A DNA stretch of 61,728 nucleotides from Dehalococcoidia bacterium (GTDB lineage: Bacteria > Chloroflexota > Dehalococcoidia > DSTF01 > RBG-16-68-14): the NCBI GenBank assembly GCA_040882355.1, contig JBBEBM010000073.1, positions 1 through 61,728 on the forward strand, read 5' to 3'. The translations under genes were made by a program, and so were the position numbers. The notes beneath the pieces are model-generated. The model made no database searches. It was not told where the DNA came from and was given only the letters and a program-made list of their open reading frames with translations. Of this stretch, positions 9,546 to 18,009 are shown one piece after another (position 1 is the stretch's first letter; each line of letters opens with the position of its first letter).

Positions 9546-10744
9546 CAGATCACTCCCGCCGACCGCAGCCGGACGAGGTCGCAGCGCGACAGGCCGAGCA
9601 GTTCGCCGTAGACTGCTTCGTTGTGCTCGCCCAGGCTTGGCGCCGGGCGGAGCGACCAGCCACCCTCGGCCGTCCGGAAGGGCGGTCCCGGATAGCTGAG
9701 GCGGCCCGCGCGCGGGTCGTCCAGCTCCCGGATCGACTCGCGGGCGCGCAGGTGAGGCTGCTGGAGGACCTCGCCGATGCTGTAGATCGGCGCGGCCGAA
9801 CAGCGCAGCTCGCCCGAGCGCCGGTACGCCTCGTCGCGCGTCGTCCCCGCCGCCCAGGCGTAGATCGTCGCCAGCACCTCGTCGTTGTTCATCAAGCGGG
9901 CGCGCGCGTCGCGGAAGCGCTCGTCGTCGATCATCGACTCCGCATCCATCAGCCGGGCGAACGCAGGGAAGTTTCGCGGCATGACGTGCACGCCGATGTG
10001 GCCGTCGGCGCAGGGGTAGATGCCGATCATCGCCGACGCGCTGTTGCCGCGCCTGTGCGAAAGGATGTCGCTCTTGCGGTACAGGTAGTCGCCCAGATAG
10101 AGCTCGATCGTCGCCGCCTGGCACTCCATCGCGTTGATGTCGATGTGCTGGCCGATCTCGATCACGCCCACCGAGAACAGCCCGGCGAGCGTCGCGCCGA
10201 ACGCGTGCAGGCCCGCCTGGTAGAACGCCTGGTGGCCCGCCGTCATCAGCGGCTCGCGGTCCGGGTCGCCGGTGATCGACATCTGCCCGCCCGCCGCGAA
10301 CGCGACGATGTCGCTCGCGCGCCACTTTGCGTACGGCCCCGACTGCCCGAAGGCGCTGACGGACGTGACGATGAGGCGAGGGTTGCGCTGGTGCAGCGCC
10401 TCGACGCCGAGGCCGATCGCATCCAGCTCGCCCGGCGTGGCGCTCTCGATCAGCGCGTCGGCGTGCTCGATCAGCTCCAAGAGGATGCGCCGCCCTGTCG
10501 CGGTCGAGTAGTCGAGGGTGACGCCCTCCTTGCTCGTGTTCAGGTAGAGGAAAAGGGCGCCCGCCTCCGGGTGCGGTGTGTCAGGGAACGGCCCGACGCG
10601 TCGCGCCGGATCGCCTCGCCCCGGGCGCTCGACCTTGATCACGCGAGCGCCGTAGTCGGCAAAGAGCTTCGTCGCGAAGGGGCCGGCGGTGCCCTCGCTC
10701 AGGTCGAGGATCGTCAGCTCAGAGAGCAGTCCTTCGTCGGGCAT
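9545..10744 (-). CDS. Family III CoA transferase (CaiB/BaiF)
   Basis: AGPFATK..ADYGARVIKVE, YPCADG, APSLGEHN. Confidence 0.93.
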   Translation of the reverse strand: MPDEGLLSELTILDLSEGTAGPFATKLFADYGARVIKVERPGRGDPARRVGPFPDTPHPEAGALFLYLNTSKEGVTLDYSTATGRRILLELIEHADALIESATPGELDAIGLGVEALHQRNPRLIVTSVSAFGQSGPYAKWRASDIVAFAAGGQMSITGDPDREPLMTAGHQAFYQAGLHAFGATLAGLFSVGVIEIGQHIDINAMECQAATIELYLGDYLYRKSDILSHRRGNSASAMIGIYPCADGHIGVHVMPRNFPAFARLMDAESMIDDERFRDARARLMNNDEVLATIYAWAAGTTRDEAYRRSGELRCSAAPIYSIGEVLQQPHLRARESIRELDDPRAGRLSYPGPPFRTAEGGWSLRPAPSLGEHNEAVYGELLGLSRCDLVRLRSAGVI

Positions 10745-10791
10745 GGGAAATGAATGATAGCAGGAGGGAGGTGCGCGGATCGAGGCGTCAT

Positions 10792-10815
10792 GTAGGGGCG
10801 GGTCTCCGCCCCGCC
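10792..10815 (+). repeat. GTAG REP-like palindrome
   Basis: GTAGGGGCGGGTCTCCGCCCCGCC, related to the element at 32449. Confidence 0.55.
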
Positions 10816-10829
10816 GGTCGGACGCGGAG

Positions 10830-11906
10830 CTACGTCGTCGCCACCTCCGCCCCGCCCTCCGCCGCCGAGCGGTAGACCGCGTCGACCAGCTCGTGGGCGC
10901 GCACGCCGACGTCGAAGCTGGGGTGGGGGTCGCGATCTTCCGACAGCGCCCGCAGGAAGAAGTAGTCCTCCAGCGAGTACCGCCGCGCTGCCTGCGCGAA
11001 TTCGTCGCCCTCCAGCCCGACCAACGAGAGATAGCGGCGCAGCACCTCCTCCTCCGACAGCTCGGCGCGACCGCCGCTGCCGTAGGTCTCGTAGCGGATC
11101 GGGCCGAGGAAGTCCTGGTCGACGGTGAAATAGCCGTGCTCGAAGAACATTTCGAGGAGCCGGCCCGAGCCGCGGCTGAGCAGGTTGTGCCAGACCGAGA
11201 GCAGGTGGCCTGTTGCGCCGTTCGCGAAACGGAACGAGACCGAAGCGACGTCCTCGACCCCCTCGTGCCCGGCGAAGTTGCGCGTCTCCGCGCGCAGGCT
11301 CTCGATGCCGCCCGCGAGCCATGTGATCACGTCGAGGTCGTGGATGCTGTGCTCGATGAGCGTGCCGCCGCCGGTCATCGCGACATCGCCGCGCCAGGTG
11401 CTGGCGTAGTGGCCCTGGATCGGGAAGAACTGGTCGTCGCGGAACATCACGGCCATCAGCCGGCCGAGCTTCGGGTCGCCCGTCAGCTCCTTGAGCACGG
11501 CGAAGATCGGGGAGTGGCGCAGCACCAGCCCGACCTGGTGGCGCACGCCCGCGGAGCGGACGGCGTCGTGCATCTCTCGCGCGTCGGCGAGCGTGCGGGC
11601 GAGCGGCTTCTCGCAGAAGACGTGCTTGCCAGCGGCTGCGGCCTTTAGGACGAGCGCCTTGTGCTCGGCGGTCGGCGTGCAGACGTAGACGGTGTTCACG
11701 TCGGGCGAGCCGATCAGCTCGTCGTCGTCCGATGTGTAGAAGTCGAGGCCGGCGATCTCCGCGAACTCGCGCGCCCGGTCCTCGATCCGGTCGCAGACAG
11801 CGACGTAGCGCGCGTTGACCAGCCCCATGCGAATCAGGCCGTGGATGCCGCGCGCATGAAAGCGCCCGATCAACCCCGCGCCGATGATGCCCACCTTCGG
11901 TTGCAT
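10830..11906 (-). CDS. Gfo/Idh/MocA oxidoreductase
   Basis: GAGLIG, CEKPLA, GGTLIEHSIHDLD. Confidence 0.92.
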   Translation of the reverse strand: MQPKVGIIGAGLIGRFHARGIHGLIRMGLVNARYVAVCDRIEDRAREFAEIAGLDFYTSDDDELIGSPDVNTVYVCTPTAEHKALVLKAAAAGKHVFCEKPLARTLADAREMHDAVRSAGVRHQVGLVLRHSPIFAVLKELTGDPKLGRLMAVMFRDDQFFPIQGHYASTWRGDVAMTGGGTLIEHSIHDLDVITWLAGGIESLRAETRNFAGHEGVEDVASVSFRFANGATGHLLSVWHNLLSRGSGRLLEMFFEHGYFTVDQDFLGPIRYETYGSGGRAELSEEEVLRRYLSLVGLEGDEFAQAARRYSLEDYFFLRALSEDRDPHPSFDVGVRAHELVDAVYRSAAEGGAEVATT

Positions 11907-11915
11907 GTGGCTGCC

Positions 11916-12710
11916 CTACCTCCTCGTCGCGACCGCGAGCACGCGCCGGCGATAGGGGCGCTGCTCCAGCGTCATCGTTATCTCGCCGAAGAGCGCGTTG
12001 ACGGCGAGGTCGCCCATTTCGGCTCGAAGGGCCTCGTCTGCTGCCACCAGCGCGCTGTATGCAGCCGTCATGGGCTCCGGCCACCCCGGAATCTCGTCGT
12101 AGGCATCGATGCTGAATCCTGCGTCGTCGAGGACGGGACGGTAGTCGTCGACCGGGTCGGCGCCGATGACGGGCAGGTCGCGCACTCGCTCCGGCGCCAG
12201 CTCGAAGGCGGTGAATACGAAGCGAGCGCCGGGCCTGAGTACTCGCGCGGCTTCGGCCATTGCCGCGCGCTTGTCCGGCGCGTACTGCAGGGCGTCCTCG
12301 CTCATCGCTGCGTCGGCCGAGCCGTCCGGCAGGCCGGTGCTCGCGAACGAGCCGACGCGAAACTCCGGGGCGTCACCTAGCCCGAGCGACGCCGCGCGCT
12401 CGCCCGCGAGCGAAACGGCGACCGCCGAGAGGTCGACGCCGGTCAACCGGGCGCCGGTCTCACGCGCCATCCACAGCGCTGGCCCCGCCATGCCGCAGCC
12501 AAGGTCGACGAACGTGTCGTCCGGTGTGAGGCGAAGCTCGGTCTCGATGCGGCGCAGCTCTGGCAGCGTGACGAAGCTGATGTGGGCGAACTCCTCGGGG
12601 AAGTCGAGGCCGCACGCGTGCTCCCGCCAGAGGCGGCGCAGCGTTGGGCTCTTCGGCATCGCCTTGTAGACCGCGTCGTAGCCAACCGAGACGATCTCTT
12701 CATCCATCAT
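11916..12710 (-). CDS. Class I SAM-dependent methyltransferase
   Basis: VDLGCGMAG, GVDLS, RVLRPG; start placed at ATG 12710. Confidence 0.88.
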   Translation of the reverse strand: MMDEEIVSVGYDAVYKAMPKSPTLRRLWREHACGLDFPEEFAHISFVTLPELRRIETELRLTPDDTFVDLGCGMAGPALWMARETGARLTGVDLSAVAVSLAGERAASLGLGDAPEFRVGSFASTGLPDGSADAAMSEDALQYAPDKRAAMAEAARVLRPGARFVFTAFELAPERVRDLPVIGADPVDDYRPVLDDAGFSIDAYDEIPGWPEPMTAAYSALVAADEALRAEMGDLAVNALFGEITMTLEQRPYRRRVLAVATRR

Positions 12711-12715
12711 GGGTC

Positions 12716-13654
12716 CTACTCCTGCCACGGCAACGCGCGCGGCAGGAACGTCGGTCGCACGTCGCCGTCGGCGAGGATGCTGACGACCTGCAGCCGGCTG
12801 AACAGCGACGGGTCGAGCGCTTTCACCGTCGAGCTCGCCCCCTCCAGCTCGGCGTACTCGTAGACACCGATCAGCCCCACTGCGCGCAGGTCGACCTCGA
12901 GCGCGTCGAGCGCCTCGTTCGCTGCGGCGAGCCGCTTGCGCGCCATTCGCCGGACGACGATGCCCTCCGTCGCGTCGGCGCCCGGCGGCGCGCCTGCGAT
13001 CGCGAAGCCGCTCTCGGTCTCGGACGCAGGCAAGCGCTGCAGCGTCCACGCCTCCTCGACCTCGAAGTCCGCCGCCTGCCCCACGTCGAGCCCGTGCGAG
13101 AGGGCGCCGATGTTCTCCCAGAGCCGCTCGCGCCCCTCGCCGTCGAGCGTGAGGCGATGCACGGCGGTGCTATCGACGTGGAACGTGCCGTTCACCTTCT
13201 CCGTGATCCGCGTCCACCAGCGGCTCATCCCGCCGATCACCGACGCGTACCCGCCCTCGACGCGCATCTTGGCGAGCTTCACGGTTACCGGGAATCTCAC
13301 CTCGGTGCGCGCGCCCGGAGGGAGCGGCGCTGCCGCCACCTGCACCCGCTGGACAAAGTCGGACGCGTCCGGCTCCTCGACGGGCACCTGAGCGCCCGGC
13401 GGCACCCAGAGGAGGAAGGGGCCGCGCACGTTGCCTGCGCTCAGCCGCTCCTCCATCGAGCGCAGTAGCTCCTCCCAGGCCGCGTTCTCCTCCCACAGCG
13501 GCGCGACGTAGACGCCGGCTCGATGAGCGCCGTCTGTCGCGATTGTTTCACCTTCAGGTGCTTCGGTTAGGCTGAGCTGGGACTCGAAGCGGCCGTTCAG
13601 CCACTCGACCAGAAGGCGGGCGGAATAACGGGCGAGCCGGTCGCTTGGGGCCAT
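12716..13654 (-). CDS. Hypothetical protein
   Basis: 312-aa ORF with host-like codon use; extended -10 (TGCTACGAT) just upstream. Confidence 0.75.
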   Translation of the reverse strand: MAPSDRLARYSARLLVEWLNGRFESQLSLTEAPEGETIATDGAHRAGVYVAPLWEENAAWEELLRSMEERLSAGNVRGPFLLWVPPGAQVPVEEPDASDFVQRVQVAAAPLPPGARTEVRFPVTVKLAKMRVEGGYASVIGGMSRWWTRITEKVNGTFHVDSTAVHRLTLDGEGRERLWENIGALSHGLDVGQAADFEVEEAWTLQRLPASETESGFAIAGAPPGADATEGIVVRRMARKRLAAANEALDALEVDLRAVGLIGVYEYAELEGASSTVKALDPSLFSRLQVVSILADGDVRPTFLPRALPWQE

Positions 13655-14650: not shown

Positions 14651-15406
14651 TCAGATATTCGAGCGGCTCTGCCCGCCGTCGACGTTAATGCAGGCGCCGG
14701 TCACCCAGCTCGCGCGCTCCGAGCAGAGGAAGACGACGGCGTTCGCGATCTCCTCCGGCCGACCGAAACGCCCCATTGGGATGTTCTGTTCGACGAAGCG
14801 GGCCATGCCCTCCGGGTCCTCCTCCAGCCGCCGGCCCCACGACCCGCCGGGGAACGCTGTCGAGCCCGGCGCCACGGAGTTCACGCGGACCTCCGGTGCC
14901 ATCGCGAGCGCCATCGCCTTGGCGTGGCTGATCATCGCCGCCTTCATCGCGTTATAGGTCGGCGATCCGCCCGACTCGCGTCCGTAGATCGACGCGATGT
15001 GGACGATCGACCCGCCGCCCGACGCGCGCAGGTGTGGCACGCAGGCGCGCGTCGCCCGCACGGCCGCGAGGACATTCGCGTGATAGGCGCCGTCCCAGGC
15101 CTCGTCGTCGTCGCCGCGGGTGCTGCCGCCGGCGTTGTTCACCAGGACGTGCAGCCGCCCGAAGCGCGCCATCGCCTCCGCTACGAGCCGCTTGACGTCC
15201 TCCGCCTGCGTCATGTCGACGACGACGCCCAGCGCCTCGACGCCGCGCTCGCGGACCTCCGCCTCGGTCTCGCGCAGGCGCTCCTCGCCGCGCGCGCAGA
15301 GCGCGACGTGACAGCCCTCGCCGGCGAGGCCGAGCGCAATCGCGCGGCCGATGCCGCGGCTGCTGCCGGTGACGATGGCGACTTTGTCGCGCAGGCCGAG
15401 GTCCAG
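14651..15406 (-). CDS. SDR family oxidoreductase with probable CTG start
   Basis: Frame is open upstream of the ORF-track ATG: (L)DLGLRDKVAIVTGSSRGIG; GGAGG 6 nt before CTG; YNAMK. Confidence 0.88.
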   Translation of the reverse strand: MDLGLRDKVAIVTGSSRGIGRAIALGLAGEGCHVALCARGEERLRETEAEVRERGVEALGVVVDMTQAEDVKRLVAEAMARFGRLHVLVNNAGGSTRGDDDEAWDGAYHANVLAAVRATRACVPHLRASGGGSIVHIASIYGRESGGSPTYNAMKAAMISHAKAMALAMAPEVRVNSVAPGSTAFPGGSWGRRLEEDPEGMARFVEQNIPMGRFGRPEEIANAVVFLCSERASWVTGACINVDGGQSRSNI

Positions 15407-15862
15407 AGTGCGCCTCCAGTGTTGGGCTGGCGCCAGTGTATCAAGTGGCGCCGCCCTGGCATCAGGTCTCCGAGCGGCAAGCGTTTCGTGTCATTACGTT
15501 TGGCAAAATCGCTTATTTAGTGGACATAACGTCCGCGACCTTCCGCACGCGAGTTTGGCCTACGCCCGATTTGGGCGTGTCTCCCACGCTGGATTGTTGA
15601 CGCTAGGGTAGAGGCGGCGCGGGATAGCGCGAAGGGGCGGGTGGCACGTGCTGGCGTCTAGGGCGAAGAAGGGCGGACAGGGGAGTTGACGAGGGCCCGA
15701 CGCCGGCTGGTGGCGGGGGGAACGGCGCCGGGACCCTCCAGGGCGGGGACACGTGTTTCCCCAAGCTATCAATCGACCGGAGTGGCGAGATCTGAAGGGC
15801 GGGCATTGTGCTTTGTGAAGGCGCGGAACCGCCTGCCGCCATGGGATAGCTGCACGAGCGGG

Positions 15863-16336
15863 TCACCGAGTCAAGAGCGACTCGATATTCTCACGAAGCA
15901 CGTCCTCCGATTGGTAGCCGATCACGGTACGTTCCACGCTGCCGTCGGCGTGCATGTAGACGACCGCCGGGTGGTAACCGGCGTTCAGCTTGTTCGCAAT
16001 CCTGAGGTCTTCGTCGGTATCGTAGTCAAGCGTGACGAACGTTAACTGACCGGCGTACTCCTGCTTGAGCCCGTTCACGACGGGCCTCATTCTCTCGCAG
16101 TACACTCAGGTGTCTTGATCGACGAAGACGAAGGCGGGCAAGCCGCCGGTGTCTATCAGTCCGGTCTCATCGGCAGGCGGTTGGTCGCGCGGGACCGGAC
16201 CCCCGCTGCCAGAGCCGCTCACCGGCTCGCCGGTCGGCGCTGGCGTCGGCCCGCCGTCCCCTTGCGAGCAGGCGGACGCGAGAAGGACGAGAGCGGCTAT
16301 GAAGAGGACCGCGAGTAAACGGGGCGCACGCGACAT
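15863..16336 (-). CDS. Lipoprotein thioredoxin-like protein, probable selenoprotein (UxxC)
   Basis: Lipobox LASAC; FVFVDQDT-TGA-VYCERMRPVV in one frame; cis-Pro loop YHP; hairpin downstream of TGA. Confidence 0.85.
16055..16105 (-). promoter_or_regulatory. Putative bacterial SECIS element
   Basis: After UGA: GUAC-UGC...UGA-G-GCCCGU-CGUGA-ACGGGC-UCA...GCA-GGA-GUAC. Confidence 0.65.
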
Positions 16337-16397
16337 CACAGGCAGGTTACTCGACCTTATCCGACTCCGCCACCTGCAACGAAGGCACGACAGCCGG

Positions 16398-18009
16398 CTA
16401 TACGGGCGCCTCGCCCGGCGGCTGGTGCGAGTGCTCTGCGATAAAGTCGGCGAGCACTCGCTGCGCGTCTGACGCCGCGGTGCGGGTGCCACGATAGATG
16501 AAGAACGTGCCGAGCGCCATCACCGTCGCGGATGCAAGCAGCATGGCGTAGCGCAGGCTGTCGCCTTCGTCCACGCCCCAGACGCTCTGGAACAGCTCCG
16601 ACATGGCGCCGACAGCCAGTGGCGCGGCAGCCGCCCCGAAGACAGCGAGCGCCAGCCCGAACGCCGCAAACGCTTGCGACCGGATCCGCGGTGGAGCGGT
16701 CGCGGCGACCAGCGCGCTGATCCCCGGGATAGTGAACGAGGCGACGAGCGCGCCAAAGATGAGGAGCAGCGTCATGATCCAGACCGATGGAATCGCAAAC
16801 CCAAGCGCCCAGCTGATCGTCAGTACGCCCGCGGTGAGGGTGCTGATCTGCGCGACGAACGTGAAGCCGCGTCGAACGCACCAGTCCGCGAACGGCCCGC
16901 CGAACCACGTGGCGAAGAACGACGAGAGCGCGAGCAGGCCAAACGCCAGTCCCGCTTCCTGGGTGGAGAACCCGTAACGACGCTCGAACAACGCCGGCAG
17001 CCAGAACACGATGCCGATCAGCGTGAACCCGAACGCCGCGTTAGCGAAGATCAGGTTGCGCAGCGTGGAAATACGGAACGTCGTCCCGAGACTCTCGCGG
17101 AAGCCCATTGCGTCCGGGGGCTCCTTGAGGAAGTCGGCCAGCAGTGGATTCTGTTCGACGGCCGCATTGAGGTCGGCCTCGCCGCGCTTCGGCTCGCGCA
17201 GGGTCAGTGCCAGCATCCCGAAGAGCAGCCCGGGGATCGCCGCCGCGACGAATCCCCAGCGCCAGCCCACGCCCGCAACGATGGCTCCGCCGATGACGGC
17301 CCCGAGCACCTGTCCCAGCGGGTTGGCGGCTCGATGATAGCCCAACGCGCGGCCGCGTAGCTGCACCGGGTAGTAGTCCGAGAGCAGGCTTGCATGAGTG
17401 GGGTTGATCGTCGCCTGCCCGATGCCAAGGAGAGCGCGCGTCATGAACAGCTGCACAAAGGTGACCGACGCCGCCGCGAGCAGGCCCGCTCCACCCCAGA
17501 TGATGCTTCCAGCAGCCAGCAGCCTTGTGCGGTCCATGCGATCGGCCAGGTTGCCGGCCGCTCCATCCCAGATGATGCTTCCAGCAGCCAGCAGCCTTGT
17601 GCGGTCCATGCGATCGGCCAGNNNNNNNNNNNNNNNNNNNNNNNNNNNNNNNNNNNNNNNNNNNNNNNNNNNNNNNNNNNNNNNNNNNNNNNNNNNNNNN
17701 NNNNNNNNNNNNNNNNNNNNNGTTGCCGGCAGGGAGGCTGAGCAGCCCCGTGATAAAGATTACCGCCATCGGCAGCAGACCGACCGTCGCGTCCGACAGG
17801 CCGAAGCTGTCGCGGATGCGGTCAAGCGATACCGCCAGCACGGCGCGGTCGAACTCGTCGATGGCGTTGAGGATGAAGAGCACAGCCAGCGCCTTCATTC
17901 CGTACGCCCGCAGACTGTGCTGCAGAACTACGCGGGTGTTGGCCGCGGCCGGATCTGTTGCGGGAGCTTCCTGGTGGCTCCCTTTTCTTCTGAGGGGGGG
18001 CAGAGCCAC
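16398..18009 (-). CDS. MFS transporter (spinster-like), split by assembly gap
   Basis: N-terminal DEFDRAVL..., and GN/LADRMDR joins directly across the N run; LSDYYPVQLRGRALG. Confidence 0.85.
17622..17721. other. Scaffold gap (100 N) with an adjacent 72-bp tandem duplication
   Basis: N run; sequence at about 17487-17549 recurs at 17559-17621. Confidence 0.95.

What the first reader, a model, noticed from the sequence alone, without database searches (positions are those of the whole stretch)
15863..16336. Hidden selenoprotein: exported lipoprotein thioredoxin with a U-x-x-C active site and SECIS-like hairpin
Seen: two ORF-track entries (16106-16492 and 15863-16105) abut in the same frame, separated only by TGA at 16106-16108. 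Read through, they give lipobox LASAC, a Pro/Gly linker, FVFVDQDT-[TGA]-VYCERMRPVV and a later cis-Pro YHP. The TGA sits exactly at the first Cys position of a thioredoxin CxxC. Downstream lies a hairpin (GCCCGU-CGUGA-ACGGGC, extended by UGA/UCA and GUAC/GUAC). Known: bacterial Sec insertion uses UGA plus an adjacent SECIS bound by SelB. Inference: a membrane-anchored extracytoplasmic Sec-thioredoxin that standard annotation would split or miss.
Basis: partly seen in the sequence, partly recalled or inferred. Interest (0 to 1): 0.82.

Follow-up and report, generated by a model that had tools for sequence, protein, structure and literature searches.

The report
Hidden selenocysteine thioredoxin lipoprotein gene
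This is a real but mis-annotatable gene for a small membrane-tethered, exported thioredoxin whose active-site cysteine is replaced by selenocysteine, one member of a family that is common in Dehalococcoidia bacteria and belongs to an already known kind of selenoprotein.

Summary
Window 15866-16336 (- strand) is one 157-codon gene with an in-frame TGA at 16106-16108. It encodes a lipoprotein signal (lipobox LASAC), a Pro/Gly linker and a thioredoxin fold with a U77-V-Y-C80 active site.

- The genome holds tRNA-Sec, SelA, SelB and SelD.
- A 62%-identical ortholog in another genus keeps the TGA, with mostly synonymous changes on both sides.
- In 31 loci from the class I found 44 homologous genes with TGA at this column: 38 UxxC and 6 UxxU.
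- Among 59 Cys-type homologs, 58 have Cys there.
- The hairpin at 16068-16086 (7 bp, loop CGUGA) is conserved in register in 28 genes. Compensatory changes occur at 7 of 10 pairs, and 0 of 500 shuffles reach this.
- The AlphaFold2 model gives a confident thioredoxin fold with U77 at the N-cap of helix 1.

Thioredoxin-fold UxxC selenoproteins, selenoprotein-rich Dehalococcoidia and exported selenoproteins are already in print. It is therefore a new member of a known kind. The redox partner and substrate remain inferred. A second candidate selenoprotein, a membrane protein with CxxU, was found elsewhere in the genome.

The parts
15866..16336 (-). Complete coding sequence of the selenoprotein (157 codons, ATG 16336-16334; own stop TGA at 15863-15865)
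   Evidence: Read-through translation. 62%-identical ortholog with the same architecture. Pfam Thioredoxin 28.2 bits against a cut-off of 23.5, spanning residues 75-152 across the TGA.
16268..16336 (-). Lipoprotein signal peptide, residues 1-23: MSRAPR (positive n-region), hydrophobic core, lipobox L-A-S-A-C23
   Evidence: Sequence. Helix 6-23 in the model. Lgt and LspA genes are in the genome. A lipobox-like motif is found by regex in 43 of 44 Sec-type homologs.
16157..16267 (-). Pro/Gly/Ser-rich flexible tether, about residues 24-60
   Evidence: pLDDT 54-67 and no secondary structure. Poorly conserved between orthologs: 27 non-synonymous against 10 synonymous changes over residues 1-56. Homologs carry tethers of very different lengths.
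15866..16156 (-). Thioredoxin-fold domain, residues 61-157 (strand-helix-strand-helix-strand-strand-helix)
   Evidence: AlphaFold2 pLDDT 96-98. Foldseek best matches are thioredoxins, with TM-score to target 0.73-0.82 and rmsd 1.2-2.0 A. phmmer finds 54 PDB thioredoxin-family sequences.
16106..16108 (-). UGA codon read as selenocysteine (U77), the first position of the U-V-Y-C active site
   Evidence: TGA is at this column in 44 homologous genes. Cys is at this column in 58 of 59 Cys-type homologs. It aligns with the first Cys of CGPC. Contigs of 4 runs keep it.
16097..16099 (-). TGC codon of the resolving cysteine C80
   Evidence: Cys in 59 of 59 Cys-type homologs. It is replaced by a second TGA in 6 of 44 Sec-type homologs, giving UxxU.
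16068..16086 (-). SECIS-type hairpin: GGCCCGU / CGUGA / ACGGGCU. The stem starts 19 nt after the UGA and the apical loop starts at nt 30 counted from the U of UGA.
   Evidence: Folds. Same register in 28 genes, with 85.7% of cells paired, 7 of 10 pairs showing changes on both sides, 0 of 500 shuffles as high and 21-45% paired when slid. The ortholog changes U-A to C-G at pair 29:35.
15968..15970 (-). CCG codon of P123, the cis-proline position of the thioredoxin fold (Y-H-P)
   Evidence: Pro in 59 of 59 Cys-type homologs. It lies directly before strand 124-128. The cis conformation itself is inferred from the family.

Best explanation
Window 15866-16336 (- strand) is a functional selenoprotein gene.

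Decoding. The ribosome reads UGA 16106-16108 as selenocysteine. A SelB-type elongation factor carrying Sec-tRNA(Sec) is recruited by the hairpin 19 nt downstream (16068-16086, apical loop CGUGA).

Export and anchoring. The product goes out through a lipoprotein signal peptide. It is lipidated at C23 by Lgt, cleaved by LspA and held at the outer face of the cytoplasmic membrane on a flexible tether of about 37 residues.

Chemistry. The thioredoxin domain acts as a thiol-disulfide oxidoreductase. The selenolate of U77, at the N-cap of helix 1, attacks substrate disulfides or other oxidised sulfur. C80 resolves the mixed Se-S intermediate into an intramolecular selenenylsulfide.

Recycling. The enzyme is most likely re-reduced by a membrane electron conduit of the CcdA/DsbD type, one of which is encoded elsewhere in the genome. 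It would then serve as an extracytoplasmic reductant, much as the surface thioredoxin lipoproteins of Gram-positive bacteria do.

Shown: gene integrity, a conserved UGA, Sec/Cys pairing, a covarying hairpin, presence of the machinery and the fold. Inferred: actual Se insertion, lipidation, the direction of electron flow, the partner and the substrate.
For: Machinery:
- tRNA-Sec at 79.5 bits against a gathering score of 47, called tRNA-SeC with anticodon tca by ARAGORN.
- SelA 464 bits, SelB wing domain 67.8 bits, SelD 373 bits against a cut-off of 125.

Conservation:
- The ortholog in G004 (another genus of the same family) has TGA at the same column, at 62% identity.
- In the 20 codons before the TGA there are 12 synonymous and 2 non-synonymous changes. 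In the 80 codons after it there are 22 synonymous and 25 non-synonymous changes, with 33 codons identical.
- In the class search, the 22 best places (the window's own and 21 in other genomes) each carry one in-frame TGA. By my count of that table, 47 listed places in 27 of 401 genomes (G000 included) carry TGA.
- In 31 loci, 44 genes have TGA at the U77 column: 38 UxxC and 6 UxxU.
- Among 59 Cys-type homologs, 58 have Cys there, 59 have the second Cys and 59 have the Pro.
- In the tree, the window gene and its ortholog (98*) sit beside a clade of 25 Sec forms and 1 Cys form (SH-aLRT 88). Sec/Cys needs only 4 changes, against a shuffled mean of 34.6.

SECIS:
- Covariation is shown.
- A sister clade has the same hairpin with loop CGUGU moved 3 nt towards the UGA, so the structure is kept while the codon register differs.
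- The small apical loop with G fits the published description of bacterial SECIS (passage in PMC1088965).
- A second candidate selenoprotein gene in the same genome also has a hairpin with a GUG-bearing loop after its UGA.

Fold and export:
- Fold.
- Export: lipobox, Lgt and LspA.
- Possible electron donor: a DsbD_TM match at 39.2 bits on contig C82.

TGA is otherwise an ordinary stop here. It ends 494 of 1478 long coding-type ORFs and ends this gene itself.
Against: - No selenium incorporation, protein or transcript has been observed, and no RNA run holds the stretch.
- The single-sequence fold energy of the hairpin region is not significant (z = -1.5 to -1.9).
- No Rfam family matched the region.
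- The gene has no conserved redox neighbour. In the window it lies between an MFS transporter and a short-chain dehydrogenase. I listed the ORFs around the ortholog but did not scan them for families. So partner, substrate and direction of electron flow rest on analogy.
- The ortholog was found in only 1 of 15 other genomes of its own family (completeness 71-95%), so the gene is dispensable or mobile.
- The covariation control by shuffling does not correct for relatedness, and many of the 28 sequences are close paralogs or come from one genus.
Confidence: 0.88

Rival explanations
1. Pseudogene: a thioredoxin lipoprotein gene killed by a TGC-to-TGA nonsense mutation at its active-site cysteine.
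For: A single base separates TGC from TGA. The gene is sporadic within its own family, found in 1 of 15 other genomes.
Against: The TGA is kept in an ortholog of another genus, and selection downstream of it is largely purifying. It is also kept in 42 further homologous genes. A covarying hairpin follows it. The Sec machinery is present.
Confidence: 0.03
2. Two products: translation stops at the TGA to give a 76-residue lipopeptide, and the 80-codon ORF starting at GTG 16105 is a separate small protein.
For: Gene callers produce exactly these pieces. A GTG follows the TGA in the window.
Against: Strand 1 of the fold (residues 68-73) and the active-site position lie before the TGA, while helix 1 and the rest lie after it. 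The ortholog has CCG, not a start codon, after its TGA. The best-conserved stretch, GLIDTGGLPAFVFVDQDT, ends at the TGA. Pfam and PDB alignments run across it.
Confidence: 0.03
3. The UGA is read as a standard amino acid (Trp, Gly or Cys), through genome-wide or local recoding or near-cognate read-through, and not as selenocysteine.
For: Some uncultured bacteria reassign UGA (recalled, not tested here). Cys insertion at Sec-UGA codons under selenium shortage has been reported (recalled).
Against: TGA ends 494 of 1478 long coding-type ORFs and ends this gene. A dedicated tRNA-Sec, SelA, SelB and SelD are present. The codon sits only at a redox Cys position and is followed by a conserved hairpin.
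Confidence: 0.04
4. Sequencing or assembly error at the codon.
For: The genome is a draft of 82 contigs, and the window has a run of N only 1.5 kb away.
Against: Contigs of four runs show no other letter at 16106-16108, although they come from one study and one run may be the source. The independent genome G004 has the same TGA.
Confidence: 0.01

Closest known systems
Selenocysteine-containing thioredoxin (Trx, pfam00085, UxxC), listed as experimentally verified in the table of PMC9312934
   Same: Thioredoxin fold, Sec at the first position of the UxxC motif, and a bacterial SECIS directly after the UGA. The Pfam Thioredoxin model is passed at its curated cut-off.
   Different: This protein is exported and lipid-anchored with a flexible tether. 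It has V-Y (P-Y in the ortholog) rather than G-P between the redox residues. It scores far below the NCBIfam thioredoxin equivalog cut-off (28.9 against 96.8 bits). Its model shows four strands and three helices.
Predicted selenoprotein families 'Thiol:disulfide interchange protein' (pfam13098, UxxC), 'DsbA-like', 'DsbG-like' and 'Thiol-disulfide isomerase-like' (table of PMC9312934)
   Same: Thioredoxin-fold UxxC selenoproteins named after periplasmic thiol-disulfide oxidoreductases.
   Different: Thioredoxin_2 scores 24.3 bits, below its cut-off of 27. Thioredoxin_4 and Thioredoxin_8 give only weak matches (E = 0.23 and 0.096), and DSBA does not appear. I could not query BSepDB to see whether this family is already filed under one of these names.
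Surface thioredoxin-family lipoproteins Etrx1/Etrx2 of Streptococcus pneumoniae (PMC3914529; title and start of abstract seen)
   Same: Thioredoxin-fold lipoproteins exposed on the cell surface. They are the model for the proposed role as an extracytoplasmic reductant; the CcdA link and the MsrAB2 substrate are partly recalled.
   Different: Those use CxxC and sit in operons with their partners. This one uses Sec and has no linked partner gene.
Bacteroides fragilis TrxP, PDB 3hxs (Foldseek rank 40)
   Same: Close structural match (TM-score to target 0.67, rmsd 2.0 A over 90 columns). It is described as a periplasmic thioredoxin (description recalled).
   Different: TrxP has Cys, not Sec. Sequence identity is 23%.
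Exported and lipoprotein selenoproteins of the SAO system (SaoB, SaoC; bioRxiv 10.1101/2022.07.06.499078, passages seen)
   Same: They show that bacterial selenoproteins with signal or lipoprotein signal peptides are already described, and that such genes are typically truncated in databases.
   Different: The folds are unrelated (substrate-binding proteins and CC/CU-tail proteins) and they occur in Clostridia-type anaerobes.

Membership tests
Bacterial selenoprotein gene (SelB/SECIS-dependent UGA decoding) | In-frame UGA conserved among orthologs, with coding conservation on both sides | tested here: met
   The G004 ortholog has TGA at the same column. In all, 44 homologous genes carry TGA at the column.
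Bacterial selenoprotein gene (SelB/SECIS-dependent UGA decoding) | Cys-containing homologs with Cys aligned to the UGA | tested here: met
   58 of 59 Cys-type homologs have Cys at the U77 column and 1 has Ser.
Bacterial selenoprotein gene (SelB/SECIS-dependent UGA decoding) | Stem-loop immediately downstream of the UGA with a small apical loop containing G | tested here: met
   A 7-bp helix with the 5-nt loop CGUGA at 16068-16086. Covariation across 28 genes. The criterion is as worded in PMC1088965. bSECISearch itself was not available.
Bacterial selenoprotein gene (SelB/SECIS-dependent UGA decoding) | selA, selB, selD and tRNA-Sec in the genome | tested here: met
   all are above the curated cut-offs.
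Bacterial selenoprotein gene (SelB/SECIS-dependent UGA decoding) | Selenium actually incorporated at the UGA | not testable with these tools
   Needs 75Se labelling or mass spectrometry.
Thioredoxin-fold oxidoreductase (Pfam PF00085 Thioredoxin) | Score above the curated Pfam cut-off | tested here: met
   28.2 bits against 23.5, over residues 75-152.
Thioredoxin-fold oxidoreductase (Pfam PF00085 Thioredoxin) | C/U-x-x-C motif at the N-terminus of helix 1, plus the conserved proline before strand 3 | tested here: met
   U77 directly precedes helix 78-93, and P123 precedes strand 124-128.
Thioredoxin TrxA (NCBIfam TIGR01068 equivalog) | Score above the equivalog cut-off | tested here: not met
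   28.9 bits against 96.8. It is not an ortholog of cytoplasmic TrxA.
TlpA/ResA/CcmG-type redoxins (PF00578 AhpC-TSA, PF08534 Redoxin) | Match to these models | tested here: not met
   Neither model appears among the matches at E <= 1.
TraF / TrbB conjugative thiol-disulfide isomerases | Full-length match above the curated cut-off | tested here: not met
   Pfam TraF scores 34.5 bits (cut-off 23) but covers only the thioredoxin-like end of the profile (positions 134-223 of 224). NCBIfam TraF-like scores 19.9 against 232 and TrbB 18.1 against 132. No conjugation genes lie nearby.
Bacterial lipoprotein | Signal peptide with a positive n-region, a hydrophobic core and a lipobox ending in Cys within the first 15-35 residues | tested here: met
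   MSRAPR-LLAVLFIAALVLL-ASA-C23. I applied the lipobox rule from memory as a regular expression; no dedicated predictor was available.
Bacterial lipoprotein | Lgt and LspA present in the genome | tested here: met
   PF01790 at 157 bits and PF01252 at 127.2 bits.
Bacterial lipoprotein | Lipid modification of C23 | not testable with these tools
   Needs biochemical analysis.

The most novel reading that the evidence does not exclude
The tethered Sec-thioredoxin lipoproteins of Dehalococcoidia may be the outer arm of a selenium-based extracytoplasmic redox system that has not been described. They often occur in tandem arrays of 2-4 paralogs, some with a U-x-x-U diselenide motif. The conserved polytopic membrane protein with a C-S-A-U motif found in this genome (G000:C58:2864-3649) could be the membrane conduit that recycles them.
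Probability: 0.1. Interest if true: 0.7.

Novelty: new member of a known kind. Interest (0 to 1): 0.4.

Why it matters
- Annotation. The gene shows how annotation pipelines lose small selenoproteins. Its ortholog is deposited as a 73-residue hypothetical protein, and relatives appear in protein collections as fragments of about 75 residues that lack the active site.
- Biology. The gene adds a lipid-anchored, extracytoplasmic Sec-thioredoxin to the selenoproteome of a sediment Dehalococcoidia lineage. I found no formate-dehydrogenase-type molybdoenzyme in this genome (PF00384; the genome is 94% complete). Its complete Sec machinery may therefore be kept for redox proteins of this kind.
- Comparative data. 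The set of 44 genes, two SECIS registers and UxxC/UxxU variants could be used to train selenoprotein finders for this class.

Tried and rejected
- Word-indexed protein search with the read-through protein found nothing at E <= 0.001 among proteins of 86-277 aa. The relatives are split by gene callers, so this says nothing about novelty.
- Pattern-based scans gave little. Genome contigs returned only the G004 contig plus a short 45% match in a Pseudomonas record. Metagenome contigs returned 3 distant CxxC relatives.
- Rfam at E <= 10 over 15800-16400 gave only a chance snoRNA match. I did not check whether Rfam holds a model that would fit this kind of SECIS.
- The promoter and terminator scan of 15400-16700 was uninformative: 0 promoter-like sites, and 1 terminator-like site inside the coding sequence, as expected by chance.
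- No RNA holder was listed for the stretch, so expression could not be examined.
- Genome-wide selenoprotein scan. A first version used a poor codon model and missed the window gene, so I discarded it. The retrained version gave 139 in-frame-TGA candidates. I tested 20 with Pfam. In the 9 that had a match, the domains lay wholly on one side of the TGA (adjacent gene pairs, or a single gene). The other 11 had no match; one of these proved conserved with its TGA. The scan is crude and only 20 of 139 were examined, so it is not a selenoproteome.
- AhpC-TSA (10 matches) and CMD (1 match) in the genome showed no in-frame stops.
- A lenient Pfam scan of the membrane candidate gave only a sub-threshold Cytochrom_C_asm match (E = 0.015). 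Its neighbours gave nothing.
- The ESM Atlas look-up for the membrane candidate was not possible for a read-through protein.
- Considered and rejected: TraF or TrbB of a conjugation system, and cytoplasmic TrxA (see the membership tests).
- Binding to a partner was not tested; no complex job was sent.
Full report
OBSERVATION

On the - strand the ORF list gives 16106..16492 (128 aa) and 15863..16105 (80 aa). They are in one frame and are separated only by TGA 16106-16108. Read through from ATG 16336, the frame gives 157 residues. These are MSRAPRLLAVLFIAALVLLASAC23, then a Pro/Gly/Ser-rich stretch, then GLIDTGGLPAFVFVDQDT-U77-VYC80-ERMRPVV...GYHP123...LLTR. The gene's own stop is TGA 15863-15865.

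The hairpin is GGCCCGU/CGUGA/ACGGGCU at 16068-16086. It begins 19 nt after the UGA. The fold energy of the window's sequence alone is not remarkable. For 76 nt, z = -1.94 and 7 of 200 shuffles are as good. For 69 nt, z = -1.53 and 18 of 200 are as good.

IS THE TGA REAL?

Logan contigs from four runs of one sediment study cover the codon with no other letter. One of the runs may be the source of this assembly. The only difference in the gene is G>T at 16134, in one low-depth contig. These are contigs, not raw reads, and they come from one study. An independent genome (below) has the same codon.

SEC MACHINERY

The window's genome (G000) has 3.33 Mb in 82 contigs and is 93.9% complete. It holds:
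- a tRNA-Sec at 79.5 bits against Rfam's gathering score of 47, which ARAGORN calls tRNA-SeC with anticodon tca;
- SelA at 464 bits;
- a SelB winged-helix domain at 67.8 bits inside a 775-codon open frame;
- SelD at 373 bits against a cut-off of 125.

TGA is otherwise a normal stop. Among 1478 long ORFs with a coding-type GC pattern, 494 end in TGA, 781 in TAG and 203 in TAA.

FOLD

- Pfam Thioredoxin matches residues 75-152, across the TGA, at 28.2 bits against a cut-off of 23.5.
- phmmer against PDB sequences finds 54 thioredoxin-family sequences. It aligns D-T-[U]-V-Y-C-E with P-W-C-G-P-C-E.
- An AlphaFold2 model built on 61 sequences has mean pLDDT 86.7. It shows a signal helix at 6-23, an unstructured tether at about 24-60 (pLDDT 54-67) and a thioredoxin fold at 61-157 (pLDDT 96-98). 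U77 lies immediately before helix 78-93, and P123 before strand 124-128.
- The best Foldseek matches are thioredoxins: spinach Trx m, E. coli TrxA variants and B. fragilis TrxP. TM-scores to the target are 0.67-0.82.

ORTHOLOG

Among 60 relatives, one genome of another genus in the same family has a strong match (G004). One search shows its contig as a Dehalococcoidia MAG record. The match is 62-63% identical with one in-frame TGA.

Its translation has a lipobox (LALAC), a linker and ...GLIDTGGLPAFVFVDQDT-U-PYCERMRPAV.... The codon after its TGA is CCG, so no separate downstream gene can start there.

Codon comparison:
- In the 20 codons before the TGA, 6 are identical, 12 differ synonymously and 2 non-synonymously.
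- In the 80 codons after it, the counts are 33, 22 and 25.
- In the signal and linker region the counts are 14, 10 and 27.

Both sides of the TGA are therefore under purifying selection in this frame. The other 14 genomes of the family gave only weak hits without TGA, or none. The ortholog is thus sporadic (1 of 15; completeness 71-95%).

THE WIDER FAMILY

An exhaustive HMMER search of 1.84 billion representatives gave 586 hits at E <= 0.001. Among the best 150, eleven proteins of 73-79 aa begin at query residue 83 or 88. That is the first Met after the UxxC, so they look like truncated gene calls. One 73-aa protein is the N-terminal piece of the G004 ortholog, ending at T76. It is deposited as MEX0785361.1, 'hypothetical protein'.

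A six-frame search of 401 genomes of the class found matches at E <= 1e-6 in 59 of them. The 22 best places are the window's own and 21 in other genomes, and each has one in-frame TGA. By my count of that table, 47 listed places in 27 genomes, G000 included, carry TGA. They often lie in tandem runs of 2-4.

I ran tblastn of the window protein against 31 fetched loci. This placed a stop at the U77 column in 44 genes and Cys in 6. Read through, 38 are UxxC and 6 are UxxU, the latter with a second TGA at the C80 column. A lipobox-like motif is found in 43 of the 44. The exception has a mis-chosen start with an internal ...VLVAC. Tethers range from about 20 to more than 200 residues of Pro/Thr/Ala/Glu repeats.

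Among 59 full-length Cys-type homologs:
- the U77 column is Cys in 58 and Ser in 1;
- C80 is Cys in all 59;
- P123 is Pro in all 59;
- 28 of the 59 have a lipobox-like motif.

A quick maximum-likelihood tree of 109 domains was built on 100 columns, and many of its forks are unresolved. It pairs the window gene with its ortholog (SH-aLRT 98). This pair sits beside a clade of 25 Sec forms and one Cys form (support 88, not starred). Two other Sec clades are separate. Sec/Cys needs 4 changes on the tree, against a shuffled mean of 34.6.

SECIS

The 43 distinct 60-nt stretches after the UGA align without gaps.

In 28 of them, the window's included, a 7-bp helix (columns 23-29 with 35-41) and a loop CGUGN occupy the same columns. 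I counted this helix together with a 3-bp extension:
- 85.7% of cells are paired, against 21-45% when the partner is slid by 1-3 columns.
- 7 of 10 pairs show changes on both sides (18 cells).
- 0 of 500 shuffles reach the observed values.
- Examples: pair 27:37 is C-G in 21 genes and U-A in 6. Pair 25:39 is C-G in 24 and U-A in 4. Pair 28:36 is G-C in 24 and A-U in 3. Pair 29:35 is U-A in 26 and C-G in the G004 ortholog.

Some of these compensations pair a synonymous change with a non-synonymous one.

In the other 15 genes (one family of the class) the same kind of hairpin, UCCGCCC/CGUGU/GGGCGGA, sits 3 nt closer to the UGA. Cells are 92.4% paired, but there is little variation to test. A structure kept while its codon register shifts argues for selection on the RNA.

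The shuffle control does not correct for relatedness, and many rows are close paralogs. The evidence is good but not as strong as the raw numbers suggest. The published description of bacterial SECIS, a stem-loop directly after the UGA with a small apical loop containing G, is met (passage in PMC1088965). The spacing range that I recall from bSECISearch was not checked against a source.

EXPORT AND CONTEXT

Lgt and LspA are encoded in the genome. So are a DsbD/CcdA-type membrane domain on contig C82 at 39.2 bits and a cytochrome c assembly protein.

In the window the gene follows an MFS transporter (16398-17609, -) after a gap of 61 nt. It precedes a short-chain dehydrogenase ORF (14651-15214, -). 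No redox partner is adjacent.

In one other genome, a three-gene Sec-thioredoxin array lies next to two AhpC-TSA/redoxin genes and a DUF3179 gene. In another, the neighbours are unrelated.

MECHANISM

Shown: an intact, conserved gene; a conserved UGA at the nucleophilic Cys position of a thioredoxin fold; a covarying downstream hairpin; complete machinery; and a lipoprotein signal.

Inferred from what is established for SelB/SECIS decoding and for thioredoxin chemistry: SelB with Sec-tRNA is recruited by the hairpin. The product is exported, lipidated at C23 and tethered outside the membrane. The selenolate of U77 attacks oxidised substrates, and C80 resolves the intermediate.

The proposed role is that of a reductant re-charged through a CcdA/DsbD-type conduit. 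It rests on analogy with surface thioredoxin lipoproteins (PMC3914529; title and start of abstract seen). I hold that part at about even odds. An oxidising or isomerising role is not excluded, because the V-Y / P-Y dipeptide is not diagnostic.

COMPARISON WITH WHAT IS KNOWN

- The review table in PMC9312934 (passages seen) lists Sec-thioredoxin (pfam00085, UxxC) as experimentally verified. It also lists predicted thioredoxin-fold UxxC families: thiol:disulfide interchange protein, DsbA-like, DsbG-like and thiol-disulfide isomerase-like. A Prx-like family with UxxC/UxxU is listed as well.
- BSepDB (PMC13326102; section 11 read) reports 57,630 selenoproteins in 111 families. Two Dehalococcoidia MAGs with 49 and 46 selenoprotein genes are among its top ten.
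- A preprint describes exported and lipoprotein-signal selenoproteins that are truncated in databases.

My two literature searches for this class returned no paper that, by its listed title and abstract start, describes a tethered Sec-thioredoxin lipoprotein family in Dehalococcoidia or Chloroflexi. I opened only one of those papers, and BSepDB itself and its supplements were not examined. I therefore class the gene as a new member of a known kind, possibly a subfamily not yet singled out.

OTHER SELENOPROTEINS IN THE GENOME

No PF00384 molybdopterin enzyme was found. A crude scan of my own gave 139 in-frame-TGA candidates with coding signal on both sides, and the window gene was the only UxxC case among them.

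One further candidate is a 262-aa protein with long hydrophobic stretches and a C-S-A-U59 motif, at G000:C58:2864-3649. It has no Pfam or NCBIfam match. It keeps its TGA in the 13 strongest places, at 59-100% identity. These are G000's own copy and 12 orthologs in 12 other genomes of the same family. Two conserved hairpins follow its UGA, the second with a GUG loop. This suggests that the Sec machinery here serves at least two genes.

VERDICT

The gene is a real, mis-annotatable selenoprotein gene of a known kind. Interest is moderate.

Noticed in passing
own genome, G000:C58:2864-3649 (- strand; locus L094/L114), outside the window: A second candidate selenoprotein: a 262-aa protein with long hydrophobic stretches and a C-S-A-U59 motif, with no Pfam or NCBIfam match. 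One in-frame TGA is kept in the 13 strongest places (59-100% identity): G000's own copy and 12 orthologs in 12 other genomes of the same family. Two conserved hairpins follow the UGA.
   Followed up: partly
loci L049, L050, L068, L070, L072, L073 and others (genomes G286, G433, G393, G360, G415, G264): Sec-thioredoxin lipoprotein genes stand in tandem arrays of 2-4 paralogs. Six of the 44 genes have a second TGA at the resolving-Cys column (UxxU, for example U-G-P-U), which would allow a diselenide. Tethers vary from about 20 to more than 200 residues of Pro/Thr/Ala/Glu repeats.
   Followed up: partly
alignments A4 and A5 (60 nt after the UGA in 43 genes): The SECIS-type hairpin sits in two registers. 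The loop starts at nt 30 in 28 genes, the window's included, and at nt 27 in 15 genes of another family. The loop motif CGUG is the same in both.
   Followed up: yes
L080 (G286:C3:768000-786000), locus coordinates about 10546-13217: The three-gene Sec-thioredoxin array of this genome is preceded by two AhpC-TSA/redoxin genes and a DUF3179 gene. This looks like a cluster of extracytoplasmic thiol-redox genes.
   Followed up: no
protein P0018 (public collection, 172 aa): A Cys-type protein (W-C-F-F-C) nests inside the otherwise Sec-only clade nearest the window gene. This would be a Sec-to-Cys replacement.
   Followed up: no
loci L066 and L075 (genomes G394, G157): Cys-type relatives of the domain are fused behind a hydrophobic N-terminal region that has a C-G-C motif. 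L066 carries two thioredoxin domains and a long Cys-rich tail. This was seen by eye in translations only; no family scan was run.
   Followed up: no
window 14651-15214 (- strand): The short-chain dehydrogenase ORF matches its Pfam profiles only from about position 53-58 onward. The gene looks N-terminally truncated or frameshifted.
   Followed up: no
window about 17400-17750: A run of N lies inside or next to the MFS transporter gene. The ORF translation shows the stretch DRMDRTRLLAAGSIIW twice beside it, which looks like a scaffold-gap or masking artefact.
   Followed up: no
window 16134: One contig of run X4 (depth 3.65) reads T for G. By my reading this changes A68 to D in the conserved LPAFVFVD strand. 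It may be an error or a strain variant.
   Followed up: no
own genome, G000:C51:574-941 (- strand): An AhpC-TSA match is split into two overlapping pieces (profile positions 1-42 and 28-123). This suggests a frameshift or a broken gene near a contig end.
   Followed up: no
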